Positions 1-14,903 of a DNA stretch of 14,903 bases are shown in pieces (within the stretch, counting starts at the first letter, position 1; every line of letters begins with the position of its first letter). A model generated the notes under the pieces. The model was not told the origin of the DNA. It did no database searches and saw nothing but the letters and a program-made list of their open reading frames with translations. A program made the translations under genes and the position numbers. Source of the stretch: a virus (lineage: Duplodnaviria; Heunggongvirae; Uroviricota; Caudoviricetes); the IMG/VR virus record IMGVR_UViG_3300029068_000011, positions 1-14,903 of that record; one strand, 5' to 3'.

Positions 1-66
1 TGCCAGAAAGCGTGCGTATTGCCTGAAAATCCAGCCAGCTACAGGGTCGTTCGCACGAAATCTTAT

Positions 67-828
67 TTATTCAACAAAGCCAATTCCCTTCTCGAAATCC
101 ACATCCTCCCACGCCAGAGCTGCCAGTTCCCCGTGACGAAGCCCGGAGTAAACGGCAAATTTCCACAAGTTTTGGCTCTGTCCTTTTTCACTTTCCATTA
201 ATGCATTGAATTCTGTTTTAGATAACGGGTCAGGCTTTATTCTGTTTCGCTGTAATTTTTTTACTCCTTCAAATGGTTTGGTTGATATAAATCCCGACTG
301 ATACGCAAAACGTAACAGCGAACAGAGCAGGGCGATATAGTTATCAACTGTGCGCACGGTTCTTCCTTTTTTGTTGGATCTTGGATTATCCAGGTAAAGC
401 GTTTCTCCATGCAGCAGTTCATTCCGGTAGTTTAAGATATCGCTATAACGAATATATGATATCGGGGTACTTTCACAAATTATTATTCTGAGTGTTTTTA
501 ATTGTGATTTCGTTTTCTTCATTGTGTTTGTTGTTAACTCTGTCTCTTTAATTTTTGTCCAGATATCACAAAGCTCCCCGAACGTTTTTATGACTCTCGT
601 TGTCACCATTTTTGCCCCAGTGCTGGACTGGGGAAAACGTCTTAAATACTCAAATTCACCGGAGTTTATTTCATGAACTATCAGCGCTCTTAAATTTCCG
701 GCTTTTTTAATATTACTGTTTGTAATCTCCCAGCCTTTTAATGTTTCCCGACATCGTTTTCCTCGAAACATGAACCAGATGCGAATGTTTCTACCTCTAA
801 TCTCGACACCTGTTGGTAATTTAGACAT
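67..828 (-). CDS. intR: Phage tyrosine integrase, C-terminally truncated (253 aa; ends shortly after an LRHGELAALAWEDVD motif, so most of the catalytic domain is absent)
   Basis: ATG at 828 (minus), stop TAA at 67-69. The translation matches my memory of the Rac IntR N-terminus. Lambda-family integrases are about 350-410 aa; none of the three minus-strand frames across positions 1-66 continues an integrase-like sequence. Confidence 0.7.
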   Translation of the reverse strand: MSKLPTGVEIRGRNIRIWFMFRGKRCRETLKGWEITNSNIKKAGNLRALIVHEINSGEFEYLRRFPQSSTGAKMVTTRVIKTFGELCDIWTKIKETELTTNTMKKTKSQLKTLRIIICESTPISYIRYSDILNYRNELLHGETLYLDNPRSNKKGRTVRTVDNYIALLCSLLRFAYQSGFISTKPFEGVKKLQRNRIKPDPLSKTEFNALMESEKGQSQNLWKFAVYSGLRHGELAALAWEDVDFEKGIGFVE

Positions 829-1576: not shown

Positions 1577-2410
1577 TTATTCTTCTGGATTATCGATTAC
1601 ACTGTATTCCCCGGCTATAACCGATATGTCGTCTGGATTAATTGTTTCCACCTCTTTTCCATCCATCGATACTGCACGCTGGATTTCAATAGATACCGGC
1701 AGATACTTGAACAGTTTTCGTATCACTGTCTTTTTGGCCATGTCTTCAAAGTGTTCATCCCAGATGGACGACGCCCCTTTTGACGCTGCGTTTTTTGCCG
1801 CCTTGCTGTGTGTGTCGCGAACTTTTTCTACTTGTTTGCGGGTCATGACTTCAAACTGCACTCCTCCGTCTTTCAGTTTTGCAACAGCATAGACATGGGT
1901 TATAGGGGCATCTTCGTTTTCACCGGGACGATGAACCAGTTTTTCATCAAGGCCAAGTTCATAGCTGAATTCATCACATTCACGGACAACACGAGCTGAC
2001 AGACTGATGATTTGACCTGATCGACGGGCAAGGTCGATCATGCCGCGATAACCGATGATCAGCTGTACGTTCTTCTTACCGTTTTTTGCTTTTCCGTTGC
2101 CGAACGGTAGCAGATATGCATGACCGAGGGCGCTACCTGGCTCAAGTCCGAGCTGTGAACACTGTACGATGGCACCGATAAAACTCGTCGAGTCACAGTT
2201 TCTTAGTTCCGGTACTTTACGGATTTCTGTTGTAGCAATGCGGATCATGCGTTCCGCTGTCATGTGACGTGGCAGAGCTGCTGCCAGTTGCGCTTTCATT
2301 GCCGGGCTGTTAATCACGCACAGCACATCCTTATCGTTAACTGCTGCTGGTGCACGGTTTCCCTGAGTTTTTTGCAGATCGGCTTTTGCGATAGGTGGTT
2401 GCTTAGTCAT
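1577..2410 (-). CDS. recT: RecT single-strand annealing recombinase
   Basis: ORF 1577..2467; start at ATG 2410 ([24 protein letters not shown]...) with an AAGGAG Shine-Dalgarno 7 nt upstream. Overlaps the recE 3' end, as in the recET operon. Confidence 0.9.
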
Positions 2411-5003
2411 TTGCATACTCCTTAGCCCAGCGGGGCAGTGATAACGTCTTAATAGCTGGCCATTCATCGGTATTTAGGCAGTCAGCCAGGGTCCGCAGAT
2501 TGCGGTGATATTCCTGCTGGCCTGCCAGTTTTGCTTCTTCGCCCATCATGAAAATCTCAACCGGATAACGTCCGCATTCAACAGTTGTGCTGGCAACCAG
2601 AAAAACGAAAGTTGGCTGCACACCAAACTGTGCTTCATAACCGTCACTGTAGAATGCATCCTGAACGTGATAGCGGTAGTCGTAATAAGACGTTTTGAAT
2701 CGTTGAATATCCGCTGTGGTTTTCACGTCCATGATCCAGTGAAATTCAGGAATAATTTTGTCCGGACGGCACCGACACAAAATTCCTGTTTCCGGATCTT
2801 CCCAGTAAATTGATGATTCAGCGTGTCCGGCGCTTTCAACAAGTCATTGCCCCAGCGGCAAAGCCATAACGCTTTGATACATGAGTTCAATTTTCCGGCC
2901 TTCTTCCGCAGTGATAACCGTTTTTCCTGTGCTTGCGCATTCCATCAGAAACGCTTTCTCTTCTTCTTTTCCGGCGTTTGTACGGCGGTTAAATTCAGGT
3001 GCTACGATAAAGCGGTTACTAAATTCTTCCGGTTCAAGTACCCGGCAGTGGAAAGCGGTTCCTAAATCGAGCGTTTTTGTCTTTGTAGTGTCCACGGGGG
3101 CATTTTTACGCCACAAATACAGTGCCGGAGTATCAGCAATGTCATCGAGCTGAGACTTACTGACACCGGGACCCGCGTGGTAATTCTCATTCGAAATTCC
3201 GTAATAAATACCGGGCTCTATGTCTTCTACGATTACGGGATCTGCGACTTCGCCAGTTTCATCACTGCAATCGCGATGCGGATCGCTGCCAGCATTCTCA
3301 TTGTGCGGATGTTCAGCGCCTTCCATTTCCTCCGGATCTTTTTCCTTAGCTTCAACCTGATTCTCTTCACCGAATGTTTCCTGGTATGTTGCGTCGCCCA
3401 TCACCGCACCACAGTCAGGGCAGTTATCCCCGCCAGTCTGACCGCAGGCATTGCAGACTATTTCCTGTTCCTGTTGCACTACTGGCTCAGGTTGTTTCGC
3501 ATCCGGGCTGATTATTTCCGTTTCTGGCTGGTTCTGGTACACAGAATCGCGAGTCTGGATCCCCTTTACCCATTTCGGATCGTTCGGGTCGCTAATTCCG
3601 TCAACAAATTCACCACGTGATGCAGCAAGCAATTTATCGGCATCGACAGGATCTTTTGATGGAATGTTTTTTCGGGCTTCATGGAGTTCTGCCCGCAGTT
3701 TCTGATATTTCGCATCAACAGAATTTACCTGTGACTGAGCATCCAGCGGCTGCGTGTCCTGATGATGTTCAGTTGCGTCCGGTTCCATTGTTTCAGCCTC
3801 TCCCTGTTCAACTGCCGTTGTTCCAGATGGTTGCGGTTTTTCTTCATCATCCTGTTTTCCTTCTTCTGTTACTCGCTGCGGCATCGGGGCAGAGGAGCGA
3901 CCGCAGGCAATATCCACGATTTCCGGATCAGGGTTGGCATGATCGGTTTCAGTCAGTACTTTGTTCAGATATTCAGTGACGTGCGCGGGGATGACCTCGA
4001 TCCCAATTGGTGCTTCTTTTACGGACGCAACCACGATGGCGCGGGAATAATCCAGCCCGCCAGGCATGGTGATGAATTTGTCGCGGAAAACAGAAAAGGG
4101 CGGTTTATTTTCAGCGATAATTTCCTCAATGCGTTTAGCGTGTGCCGGATGAAGGTTATAGATGTCCAGATCCATTGAACGGGCCAGTACGCCAGTGGCT
4201 ACGTCGCGCGCCAGTGACGTCAGATCGTGTACGAAACCTTCGCCGCGATCGGTGAGGTTTCCGCCGCCAGCATTAGCACCGGAAGCCGTGCGAGTGATGT
4301 GTGAAACACGATTACCCTTCATCCACTCTTTTGTCAGCAGTCCTCGATCGGTGTAGTCAGCGTTCAGGTATGCTTCGAAAAAAGCAGTTATCAGTCCCAG
4401 GTTTGAATTACCAGGATTAGGGAAAACTTTGTCAGTGTCACGAACCAGTTTGTGGAGTTCGCGAATTTCCAGCGGGTCGAGCAGGCTGGTTTTGTGGGAA
4501 ACAGCCAGGGCAGTAACAGCCGGTAGTTCTTCAGCCCGAGCAATGTGTAATGCCTGGAGTCCGTCGCGTGAAACGTGCGTTACCGGTTTTTCGCTGCCGT
4601 GTTGAGCAAGCCAACGAATGGGCAGTTCCTGGCCAGAAATTGGGAGTAGCATATTCTCCTCAATCTCAGTCATGTCTTCGCCGTTGACGTTGGTATTGCC
4701 TTGATAGTGAGCGTTGTCTGGTGCTGCTCCCGGTTTTAGTTCCCATGTCATGGAGTCTTTGCTGAGTTGATAGCGTTCACTCCAGGTAAAATCGATCTCA
4801 CCTTCAGCGGGCAGGTCATTAACGACAGGAAAATTCGTGGCAACAGCTTTAAAATAGCTGCTCAGTTTTTTACCTGACTTAACGATCAGGTAGTCCAGAG
4901 TGGCACAGGTCGATTCAAAATCGTTGCTTGCCCACAGGACGACGTCAGGTTCACCGGATGATTTTTTCGCTTTCCGTAACAGGAAGAGTGGTTTTGTGCT
5001 CAT
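2403..5003 (-). pseudogene. recE: recE exonuclease VIII reading frame interrupted by one in-frame TGA at 2844-2846 (codon 720 of an otherwise continuous 866-codon frame)
   Basis: ORFs 2844..5003 (719 aa) and 2403..2780 (125 aa) are in the same frame, separated by 21 sense codons ([21 protein letters not shown]) and a single TGA. 719+1+21+125 = 866, the length I recall for intact RecE. GAGG Shine-Dalgarno upstream of ATG 5003. Confidence 0.85.
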
Positions 5004-5625: not shown

Positions 5626-5846
5626 CACCATGACTCCGCCTTTACAGGTAAACCATCACGACCGAGGAAGGCTTTAATCATGCGGTCAGTAATGCATGTT
5701 TTTGTGGTCAGGTTACGAATATATAGTTTTCGCTTTTTAATATTGTTTGCCGAGGCAATATATGTCCGGCCTTCATGAAGAACATAATCGCCAGGAGTCA
5801 CACACTGACGTGGTATTTCATCAGTTCCGAAGTGATGTGCAATCAT
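5625..5846 (-). CDS. kilR: KilR cell-division inhibitor (73 aa)
   Basis: ORF 5625..5858; start at ATG 5846 ([14 protein letters not shown]...) with a GGAGA Shine-Dalgarno 5-6 nt upstream; the ATG at 5858 has none. Confidence 0.85.
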
Positions 5847-7381: not shown

Positions 7382-7858
7382 TTAAGTTCCAGTTTTTGTG
7401 ATGTTCTGGCTTTTCCGTTCAGATTCTAGAGCTTTCAGATACTTACCCACTTTCATTTCCATCGCTGCTATGTAGGCGCGAACATCGTGGTCAACCCAAT
7501 CTGGTTCTGTAGCATTTCCAGATAACAGGAAAGCTACAATCGCTCTTATTTCATCAGAGGCTGCTTGATAAAGGTTGTTTATATCTAAAAGTTCACTTTT
7601 TGTATCTGGATTGGTGGGGGTTGGTATGGGGTATTCGTTAAGCCCCCAATGCTCTGGACCAACAACATCAGCAAAGAAACGCCATAATTCTGGAAGTTTA
7701 TCTTTACTTATGGAGCCTTTCTTAATCCAGTCATAGATTGATGGTGGTTGGACTTTGAAGTGGCGTGCGACCTCCGCCTTTGATTTGACGGATCCCGATG
7801 CGATTTTTTTGTTAATGGCCTGCTCTATCGCTCGGCCTAAGTCTTTACCACTAAGCAT
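7382..7858 (-). CDS. racR: Rac prophage repressor (cI-like, 158 aa)
   Basis: ORF 7382..7858 with an AGGAGA Shine-Dalgarno upstream; divergent from the cro-like ydaS. Matches recalled RacR. Confidence 0.9.
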   Translation of the reverse strand: MLSGKDLGRAIEQAINKKIASGSVKSKAEVARHFKVQPPSIYDWIKKGSISKDKLPELWRFFADVVGPEHWGLNEYPIPTPTNPDTKSELLDINNLYQAASDEIRAIVAFLLSGNATEPDWVDHDVRAYIAAMEMKVGKYLKALESERKSQNITKTGT

Positions 7859-11710: not shown

Positions 11711-12520
11711 TCACTTAATTATTGGATAACTCACACAAGTATGACCGTTGCTTATCGCATACATTTGGTTTCCCTTAAGATTTACAAATGGAAATGTCGT
11801 ATACTCATAATTTATAGAGGTCATATTAAATGTAAGGAATTTATCTTCAAGTTCTAATTTTGTAGAGTGGGCAGGGTATGTTCCTTCATTTTTCATTGTG
11901 ATAATAAAACCGATAGGAAAAAAATGTAAAGCACAAATAAATGCCACATGTCCTTCGTTCATAAATGCTACACTTTGAGCGGATATGTGCATTCTGTGTG
12001 GGTAAAACCAGTAGTAAATATCATGAGTTTCCTCAAAACTTGAATTTTTACCCAAAACATAATCCTTTAAAGGTGTATAGAAGGGGCTATCTACGGGTTC
12101 TTTTTTACAATCTTCAACTGAAGTTGCTGATAGCACGTGCCCAATCATAGCCTTAGTGAAAGATATGCTATCAAAAGGTATTCTAATGAATGGATATACA
12201 TTCATACCATTCATATATCGACTTAACTGTTCTTTAAAGGACTTTGTTACATTTTCAATTGCAACATCGAGCCCACCTAATACCTTATTGTTACAGTGGC
12301 TGCAAATGGTTCTGAAATAAGAGCCATTTTTAGCATTTAATGGTTTAACTGGTTCCTGAATACCAAAAAATTCGCTAACTGTTTTCTGCAAAACAGGGCC
12401 TAAGGTTATGGCGCACTTTGGAGGAACATGATCTTTTGTGAGCAAGCCATATTTCCCACAAATATTGCAATAACCTTCAGTAATGCCATTGTGCTTCCAT
12501 CGTTCACTAATTTTCGTCAT
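11711..12520 (-). CDS. Cargo protein with an N-terminal HNH-nuclease-like zinc-knuckle motif and a roughly 180-aa C-terminal region of unknown function (269 aa)
   Basis: ORF 11711..12520 with a GAGGGA Shine-Dalgarno 7 nt upstream. Motif C18-x2-C21 ... D30-H31-V-P-P ... N ... C73-S-H-C76-N-N-K fits the HNH pattern CxxC...DH..P...N...CxxC(H/N)..K. Lies in an AT-rich segment. Confidence 0.6.
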   Translation of the reverse strand: MTKISERWKHNGITEGYCNICGKYGLLTKDHVPPKCAITLGPVLQKTVSEFFGIQEPVKPLNAKNGSYFRTICSHCNNKVLGGLDVAIENVTKSFKEQLSRYMNGMNVYPFIRIPFDSISFTKAMIGHVLSATSVEDCKKEPVDSPFYTPLKDYVLGKNSSFEETHDIYYWFYPHRMHISAQSVAFMNEGHVAFICALHFFPIGFIITMKNEGTYPAHSTKLELEDKFLTFNMTSINYEYTTFPFVNLKGNQMYAISNGHTCVSYPIIK

Positions 12521-14299: not shown

Positions 14300-14860
14300 A
14301 TGGCGCATATACAACTGGTCAAACAAACCTCTTCTGGTTTACTTCTCCCGGCGACGCCGGAGAGTTGCGATTTTTTGCATCAAATCAAAATAGGTGAGTG
14401 GATACACGCAGACTTTAAGCGTGTGCGTAACTACGCATTCCACAAGCGTTTTTTCAAACTCCTGCAACTGGGATTCGATTACTGGACTCCGGTCGGTGGG
14501 GCGATCACGCCTCGCGAACGAAAACTGGTATCGGGCTTCGTTGATTACTTGTGCGAATCAGTAGGTCGGGAACACACTCCAGCCCTGAGTGATGCCGCAG
14601 AGCAATACCTTAATACCGTTGCGACATGCAGAACCCGGGATACGGCATTGCTAAAGTCGTTTGACGCTTTCCGCGAGTGGGTAACCATTCAGGCAGGATT
14701 TTACACCGAGTATATTTATCCTGATGGTAGTCGTGGGCGCAGGGCAAAATCTATCGCATTTGCGAACATGGACGAAACCGAGTTTCAGCAGGTTTATAAA
14801 TCTGTACTGAATGTGCTGTGGAACTGTGATCCTACCCACGTAATATGGACACAGGCCTAA
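14300..14860 (+). CDS. Conserved phage hypothetical protein (186 aa), probably a nin-region-type gene
   Basis: ORF 14300..14860 with a coding-like composition that contrasts with the upstream AT-rich spacer. Weak Shine-Dalgarno (gagag). No recognisable motif. Confidence 0.55.
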   Translation: MAHIQLVKQTSSGLLLPATPESCDFLHQIKIGEWIHADFKRVRNYAFHKRFFKLLQLGFDYWTPVGGAITPRERKLVSGFVDYLCESVGREHTPALSDAAEQYLNTVATCRTRDTALLKSFDAFREWVTIQAGFYTEYIYPDGSRGRRAKSIAFANMDETEFQQVYKSVLNVLWNCDPTHVIWTQA

Positions 14861-14903
14861 GCGAGGTTCTTGTTTTCAAATTGTTCCGGACTGAGGCCGC
14901 CAC

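What the first reader, a model, noticed from the sequence alone, without database searches (positions are those of the whole stretch)
2781..2846. recE carries a single premature opal codon that removes the C-terminal about 146 residues while recT is intact
The two recE ORF fragments are in frame and separated only by TGA at 2844-2846; the sense codons on either side read ...ALPLGQ [stop] [21 protein letters not shown]... A single-base change from TGG to TGA (Trp to opal) is the simplest explanation. The lost segment belongs to the C-terminal nuclease domain, so this allele would make a truncated, probably exonuclease-dead RecE while still allowing recT translation (the recT start overlaps the recE 3' end, and coupling may be affected). 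This is relevant to recombineering-type activity of the strain.
Basis: partly seen in the sequence, partly recalled or inferred. Interest (0 to 1): 0.5.

Follow-up and report, generated by a model that had tools for sequence, protein, structure and literature searches.

The report
Nonsense mutation in prophage recE gene
An E. coli from a human gut sample carries a one-letter mutation that cuts short the recE exonuclease gene of the dormant Rac prophage, which is ordinary decay of a silent prophage gene and not a new biological feature.

Summary
recE lies on the minus strand (5003..2403). Codon 720 is TGA (window 2846..2844), where the nearest complete genomes and the crystallised K-12 protein have TGG (Trp). 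It is the only amino-acid difference from RecE of strain LR-29-1.

The stop leaves a 719-residue, 79.1 kDa product. That product keeps the N-terminal Exonuc_VIII domain and His652. It loses Asp748, Asp759 and Lys761, the PD-DXK catalytic motif, so it should have no nuclease activity.

recT is 100% identical to the reference and has its own AAGGAG ribosome-binding site.

The allele is rare. It occurs in 0 of 1718 complete E. coli genomes that hold this 61-mer. An exact 40-mer scan finds 0 TGA against 65 TGG metagenome contigs. It is probably not a sequencing error, because the exact 719-aa product is on 11 public contigs, and one of these differs from the window by a SNP elsewhere.

The prophage is decaying in other ways: intR and a DUF1367 gene are cut by IS elements. 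The racR repressor is intact, so recET is probably silent anyway.

UGA followed by C is a leaky stop. Readthrough by tRNA-Trp would restore wild-type RecE at a low level (inference).

Verdict: a real, private nonsense allele of low interest.

The parts
2844..5003 (-). recE 5' ORF: codons 1-719 plus the premature TGA. It encodes a 79.1 kDa truncated RecE (exodeoxyribonuclease VIII).
   Evidence: ORF list, translation, Pfam Exonuc_VIII at residues 2-178 with E=4e-98, NCBIfam PRK09709 exodeoxyribonuclease VIII at 1464.5 bits, molecular weight.
2844..2846 (-). Premature opal codon TGA at codon 720. References have TGG (Trp720). The next base is C, giving the UGA-C context.
   Evidence: 0 of 1718 complete genomes carry it.
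2403..2843 (-). Untranslated recE 3' remnant: codons 721-866 plus the native TAA. It encodes the rest of the PD-(D/E)XK domain.
   Evidence: Translation. Pfam DUF3799 profile positions 94-222, E=2.6e-18. Alignment to 3H4R.
2721..2762 (-). Codons for the catalytic PD-DXK motif: D748 (2762..2760), D759 (2729..2727) and K761 (2723..2721). All lie downstream of the stop.
   Evidence: Residue check. PD-DXK motif of RecE described in PMC11611040.
3048..3050 (-). Codon for active-site His652, which the truncated product retains.
   Evidence: Role of His-652 described in PMC11611040.
1577..2410 (-). recT: 277 aa plus stop, intact. Its ATG overlaps the native recE stop (ATGACTAA).
   Evidence: 100% identical to RecT of L001 and L003. 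Pfam RecT, E=6.7e-51.
2418..2423 (-). Shine-Dalgarno sequence AAGGAG, 7 nt upstream of the recT ATG.
   Evidence: Read directly from the sequence.
7382..7858 (-). racR prophage repressor, intact. This is context: recET is probably repressed.
   Evidence: 158/158 residues identical to RacR annotated in LR-29-1.

Best explanation
This is a real, lineage-private nonsense mutation in recE of the cryptic Rac prophage of a gut E. coli. It is a G->A transition on the coding strand (TGG to TGA, W720*).

Translation stops after residue 719. The product keeps the N-terminal domain and the first third of the nuclease fold, including His652. It lacks Asp748, Asp759 and Lys761 and the C-terminal half of the PD-(D/E)XK fold. 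It therefore cannot form the catalytic site or, presumably, the tetrameric ring. Loss of exonuclease activity is inferred from the known structure and motif, not measured here.

recT remains intact with its own ribosome-binding site. It can still be translated, though possibly at a reduced level because 433 nt of upstream mRNA are now ribosome-free (inferred).

The recET operon is normally silent under RacR, and this prophage is already crippled by IS insertions. The mutation is therefore best read as neutral decay of an unexpressed prophage gene.
For: - TGA in place of TGG is the sole protein difference from LR-29-1 RecE.
- K-12 RecE in PDB 3H4R has Trp here.
- The DUF3799/PDDEXK domain is split by the stop.
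- D748, D759 and K761 are downstream and H652 is upstream. The motif and domain limits (nuclease domain 564-866, PD-DXK, His-652) come from PMC11611040.
- The allele is absent from 1718 complete genomes that hold this 61-mer.
- It is absent from metagenome and species-representative scans in which the TGG version has 65 and 6 matches.
- The exact 719-aa product occurs on 11 public contigs. One of them (ERZ917613, L004) matches the window over 14,903 nt except for a SNP at 5671, and it also has the TGA.
- Other signs of decay: intR is cut at residue 249 of 411 and DUF1367 at residue 175 of 199, both by IS elements.
- racR is intact.
- sbcA mutations are needed to activate recET (PMC9504249).
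Against: - recE is usually kept open. All 66 other fetched loci that align to recE without gaps have no internal stop in the aligned part. The gene is therefore not decaying freely across the species, and 'neutral' is an assumption.
- Raw reads were not available, so a recurrent assembly or consensus artefact, or a minority variant, is not formally excluded.
- The 11 contigs may all come from one study or one host.
- Neither loss of nuclease activity nor the level of recT expression was measured.
Confidence: 0.88

Rival explanations
1. The allele is leaky and attenuated, not null. UGA followed by C terminates poorly, and near-cognate Trp-tRNA-Trp decodes UGA. A small fraction of ribosomes would therefore read through and make exactly wild-type RecE, because Trp is the original residue. 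This would leave low but real ExoVIII activity whenever the operon is on.
For: The stop is TGA and the next base is C. UGA readthrough in E. coli is a competition between Trp-tRNA-Trp and RF2, and reaches about 2% at 37 C and 4% at 25 C in K-12 reporters (PMC10570021). The reference residue is Trp. From my own recollection, not checked here: Poole, Brown and Tate (1995) ranked UGAC as the weakest E. coli termination signal.
Against: The reported readthrough rates come from K-12. From my recollection, K-12 has an unusually weak RF2 variant, so natural isolates should read through less. No structure that would stimulate readthrough lies downstream (fold z=+0.8). RecE works as a tetramer, so 1-2% full-length subunits mixed with an excess of truncated protein may give far less than 1-2% activity. 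This reading refines the main explanation and does not replace it.
Confidence: 0.1
2. The TGA is a sequencing or assembly error, or a minority variant chosen as consensus, and the organism really has TGG.
For: The window looks like a short-read metagenome contig that ends in IS repeats. The allele is unseen in 1718 complete genomes. No reads could be inspected.
Against: The exact truncated protein was called on 11 contigs from ENA and JGI/IMG sources. A second contig (L004) is a distinct sequence, differing at position 5671, yet carries the same TGA. The site is not in a homopolymer and the change is a clean substitution.
Confidence: 0.05
3. The TGA is programmed recoding, either selenocysteine insertion or regulated readthrough, or the two halves work as a split enzyme. 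In the split-enzyme version, fragment 1-719 combines with a fragment restarted at TTG742.
For: An in-frame TTG at codon 742 has an AGGA 3 nt upstream, and gene callers report a 125-aa ORF there.
Against: The 70 nt after the TGA fold no better than shuffled sequence (z=+0.8). This sequence is the same as in genomes that have TGG, so no SECIS could have evolved for it. TGA is not conserved anywhere else. The 3-nt spacing between AGGA and TTG is too short for efficient initiation. A restart at codon 742 would also lose residues 720-741 from the middle of the fold.
Confidence: 0.01

Closest known systems
RecE (exodeoxyribonuclease VIII) of the E. coli Rac prophage (K-12 P15032; nuclease domain structure PDB 3H4R)
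   Same: The locus and gene order are the same: racC-recE-recT-ralR-xisR-intR. The gene is 99.9% identical in nucleotides to recE of natural isolates. The C-terminal 262 residues align end to end with 3H4R (E=7e-181).
   Different: Codon 720 is TGA instead of TGG. The translated product therefore ends at residue 719 and lacks the PD-DXK residues D748, D759 and K761.
recE genes disrupted by IS elements in natural E. coli (for example BKQ37E with IS1, ES2 with an IS3-family element, ET210 with IS421)
   Same: recE is inactivated in the same near-identical Rac allele while recT stays annotated as intact. The disrupted genes are annotated as 'RecE family exodeoxyribonuclease' plus 'PD-(D/E)XK nuclease-like domain-containing protein' (hits H18, H27, H28).
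   Different: Here the lesion is a point nonsense mutation, not an insertion. It is therefore revertible by one base and potentially leaky.
Truncated RecE versions used in Red/ET recombineering (C-terminal nuclease domain alone)
   Same: Both are partial RecE proteins paired with full-length RecT.
   Different: [quoted passage not shown] The allele here keeps the dispensable N-terminus and loses the catalytic part, which is the opposite truncation.

Membership tests
RecE / exodeoxyribonuclease VIII (Rac prophage) | N-terminal Exonuc_VIII domain (PF06630) and an overall match to the NCBIfam equivalog model PRK09709 | tested here: met
   PF06630 E=4e-98 at residues 2-178. NF007259 scores 1464.5 bits against a cutoff of 1269 for the 719-aa product.
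RecE / exodeoxyribonuclease VIII (Rac prophage) | Uninterrupted C-terminal PD-(D/E)XK nuclease domain (PF12684; residues about 564-866) | tested here: not met
   The domain is split by TGA720. The upstream piece scores 24.5 bits, below the cutoff of 26. The remainder (67.1 bits) is encoded after the stop.
RecE / exodeoxyribonuclease VIII (Rac prophage) | Catalytic PD-DXK residues (D748, D759, K761) present in the translated product | tested here: not met
   The codons are intact in the DNA at 2762..2721 but lie downstream of the stop.
RecE / exodeoxyribonuclease VIII (Rac prophage) | Operon partner recT immediately downstream with overlapping stop and start, inside a Rac-type prophage | tested here: met
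   ATGACTAA overlap. RecT is 277/277 identical. Rac gene order is shared with L001 and L003.
RecE / exodeoxyribonuclease VIII (Rac prophage) | 5'->3' dsDNA exonuclease activity | not testable with these tools
   This needs purified protein or a genetic assay.
Programmed UGA recoding (selenocysteine or regulated readthrough) | UGA conserved among homologues, and a stable stem-loop just downstream | tested here: not met
   0 of 1718 genomes have TGA. The scans found 65 and 6 TGG matches against 0 TGA. The downstream fold is -10.6 kcal/mol against a shuffle mean of -12.9, z=+0.8.

The most novel reading that the evidence does not exclude
The UGA-C stop is an attenuator, not a knockout. Trp-restoring readthrough would give a trickle of wild-type RecE beside an excess of the 1-719 N-terminal fragment. 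The function of that N-terminal domain is unknown, and it is needed for efficient linear-linear recombination. The lineage would then keep RecT and a regulatory or scaffolding RecE N-domain while limiting nuclease toxicity, and the allele would be under selection.
Probability: 0.04. Interest if true: 0.3.

Novelty: already known. Interest (0 to 1): 0.07.

Why it matters
It matters little beyond annotation. recE should be flagged as a pseudogene (W720*) in this lineage, and the 125-aa 'DUF3799' ORF that gene callers report downstream is a remnant, not a gene.

If this strain were ever used as a host, or its Rac prophage were derepressed, RecET-type double-strand-break recombination would be expected to fail or be very weak. 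RecT-only recombination with single-stranded oligonucleotides could persist.

The allele is a small, datable marker of one gut E. coli lineage. It is also one more example of point-mutational decay in a cryptic prophage whose recE ORF is otherwise kept open in nearly all sequences examined.

Tried and rejected
- Exact 40-mer scans for the TGA allele in JGI metagenome contigs and in GTDB species-representative genomes found nothing. Controls with TGG found 65 and 6 matches. These collections therefore could not supply further carriers or sample names.
- A search for the project accession PRJEB15111 in the paper library gave no hit. I could not tell whether the 11 contigs come from one host or several.
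- The look-up of encoding contigs collapsed 10 of the 11 places as similar, so they could not be compared one by one.
- I looked for a SECIS-like or readthrough-stimulating hairpin after the TGA and found none (z=+0.8).
- I looked for a C-rich, G-poor (rut-like) stretch in the 433 nt now left untranslated. The best 78-nt window has C/G of only 1.67, and the region overall is 22.9% C and 24.7% G. This gives no particular support for strong Rho polarity, but it is a crude test.
- A Dcm-hotspot origin was rejected by eye. The mutated base is not in a CCWGG site.
- A laboratory-mutagenesis origin was rejected. The second G->A difference from 13P484A (E435K) is shared with the natural isolate LR-29-1, and the source is a gut metagenome.
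- PMC5021808 was consulted for statements on recET expression and held nothing useful.

Full report
**1. The observation**

The window is a Rac-type cryptic prophage of Escherichia coli. recE is on the minus strand. Translating 5003..2403 (-) gives a single 867-codon frame with one internal stop...[45 protein letters not shown].... The stop is TGA, read on the minus strand at 2846..2844. The two mechanical ORFs, 2844..5003 (719 aa) and 2403..2780 (125 aa, TTG start), share one frame.

**2. It is a point mutation of TGG**

A megablast of the 2601-nt gene against 5,426 complete E. coli genomes gives many full-length hits at 99.9% identity and none at 100%. Comparison with strain 13P484A shows two differences. 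One is G->A at window 3701 (E435K). The other is G->A at window 2844, changing TGG (Trp720) to TGA. Lys435 is shared with strain LR-29-1, so W720* is the only protein difference from that strain. The crystallised K-12 RecE nuclease domain (PDB 3H4R) reads MALPLGQWLVESAGH at this point.

**3. How rare the allele is, and whether it is real**

- A 61-mer centred on the stop matches 1718 complete genomes. None matches exactly: 1717 are at 98.4%, which means one mismatch, and one is lower.
- An exact 40-mer with TGA has 0 matches in the JGI metagenome contigs and 0 in the GTDB species representatives. The same 40-mer with TGG has 65 and 6 matches.
- The exact 719-residue product is nevertheless on record on 11 contigs from ENA and JGI/IMG sources.
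- The one contig shown is from a human gut metagenome (ERZ917613, run ERR1578663). It is collinear with the whole window and differs at a single base, 5671. It carries the same TGA.

Two non-identical assemblies with the same stop make a random consensus error unlikely. Reads were not available, and the 11 contigs may come from one study or one host.

**4. What is lost**

- RecE is 866 aa. Its nuclease domain spans residues 564-866, with a PD-DXK active site and His-652 (PMC11611040).
- In this sequence H652 is upstream of the stop. D748 (CRPDKII), D759 and K761 (WIMDVKT) are all downstream.
- Pfam shows the PDDEXK-like domain DUF3799 split in two. Profile positions 1-82 fall in the 719-aa product, scoring 24.5 bits, which is below the cutoff. 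Positions 94-222 fall in the untranslated remnant, scoring 67.1 bits.
- The product is 79.1 kDa against 96.3 kDa for the full protein. It keeps the N-terminal Exonuc_VIII domain (E=4e-98).

That this product has no nuclease activity is an inference from the family's established catalytic motif. It was not measured. From my own recollection, not checked here, Chang and Julin (2001) showed that substitutions of these residues abolish activity.

**5. recT**

recT (2410..1577) encodes 277 aa identical to RecT of 13P484A and LR-29-1. Its ATG overlaps the native recE stop (ATGACTAA). AAGGAG lies 7 nt upstream of the ATG. recT can therefore start translation on its own.

The premature stop leaves 433 nt ribosome-free ahead of recT. 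That stretch is not notably C-rich or G-poor: it is 22.9% C and 24.7% G, and the best 78-nt window has C/G of 1.67. Some reduction in recT expression through lost coupling or Rho polarity is possible but unproven.

**6. Context**

- The racR repressor is identical to that of LR-29-1. recET needs sbcA-type activation to be expressed (PMC9504249). The operon is therefore probably silent in this strain.
- The prophage is damaged elsewhere. intR stops matching at residue 249 of 411, where window 1-80 is the end of an IS5-family element. The neighbouring 307-aa transposase is seen in L004 (NF033579, E=5e-106).
- The DUF1367 gene stops matching at residue 175 of 199, where an IS3-family end begins at about 14829.
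- Three of the 40 best recE hits in complete genomes carry IS1, IS3-family or IS4-family insertions in recE (H18, H27, H28). Inactivation of recE therefore recurs in nature.
- Against this, all 66 other fetched loci that align to recE without gaps have no premature stop in the aligned part. These loci were selected for having the TGG 40-mer, which biases the sample only at that site. Some of them cover only part of the gene. recE is thus normally kept open, and W720* is a recent, lineage-private loss.

**7. Leakiness**

The stop is UGA followed by C. UGA readthrough in E. coli results from competition between Trp-tRNA-Trp and RF2, and is about 2% at 37 C in K-12 reporters (PMC10570021). Because the original residue is Trp, any readthrough regenerates wild-type RecE. 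From recollection, UGAC is the weakest E. coli stop context and K-12 has an unusually weak RF2, so a natural isolate would read through less. No stimulatory hairpin follows the stop (z=+0.8). This is a refinement of the main reading. The allele may be very weakly leaky, but the dominant product is the truncated protein.

**8. Alternatives rejected**

- Selenocysteine or programmed recoding is rejected. The TGA is not conserved and there is no SECIS-like fold.
- A split enzyme formed by restart at TTG742 is rejected. The AGGA lies only 3 nt upstream, and residues 720-741 would be missing.
- An origin by laboratory mutagenesis is rejected. The source is a metagenome, and the second G->A difference is a natural polymorphism.

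**9. Verdict**

This is an ordinary nonsense pseudogenisation of a well-known cryptic-prophage gene, and it is private to one gut E. coli lineage. Its novelty is 'already known' in kind, and interest is low.

Noticed in passing
window 1-80 (and L004 14887-15900): The left end of the window is the terminal repeat of an IS5-family (IS903-like) element, ...TTATTTATTCAACAAAGCCA. It truncates the Rac integrase intR after residue 249 of 411. In the longer sister contig it is followed by a 307-aa IS5-family transposase, an HD-domain gene and IS66-family genes, instead of ttcA. The prophage can probably no longer excise.
   Followed up: partly
window 14829-14903: An IS3-family element end (TGATCCTACCCACGTAATATGGACAC...) interrupts the DUF1367 gene after residue 175 of 199. 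Both window ends lie in IS repeats, as expected for a short-read contig that breaks at repeats.
   Followed up: partly
window 5671 (kilR, minus strand, codon 59): This is the only base that differs between the window and the otherwise identical gut-metagenome contig L004. It is a missense change in the KilR killing protein: Ala59 in the window, Val59 in L004 and LR-29-1. The window and L004 are therefore distinct sequences of one lineage.
   Followed up: partly
window 11711-12520 (minus strand), indel near 11925: The ORF matching the gene annotated 'chaperonin' in LR-29-1 (211 aa) is 269 aa here. It matches only residues 1-205. An indel relative to LR-29-1 lies near 11925. It is unclear which form is ancestral.
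   Followed up: no
L063 and L047 (metagenome contigs with recE): Two other metagenome recE copies align with 1 and 2 gap positions. These may be independent frameshift alleles of recE, or assembly errors.
   Followed up: no
L072 (CALWLV010000260.1) and L073 (JAFAEO010000035.1): Species-representative MAGs labelled 'uncultured Roseburia sp.' and 'Proteobacteria bacterium' contain contigs with E. coli Rac recE at about 97-98% identity. This is likely binning contamination.
   Followed up: no
window 2403-2780 (minus strand): Gene callers report a separate 125-aa 'DUF3799' ORF here, starting at TTG742 (seen in L004). It is the remnant of recE and not an independent gene, so it is an annotation trap.
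   Followed up: yes
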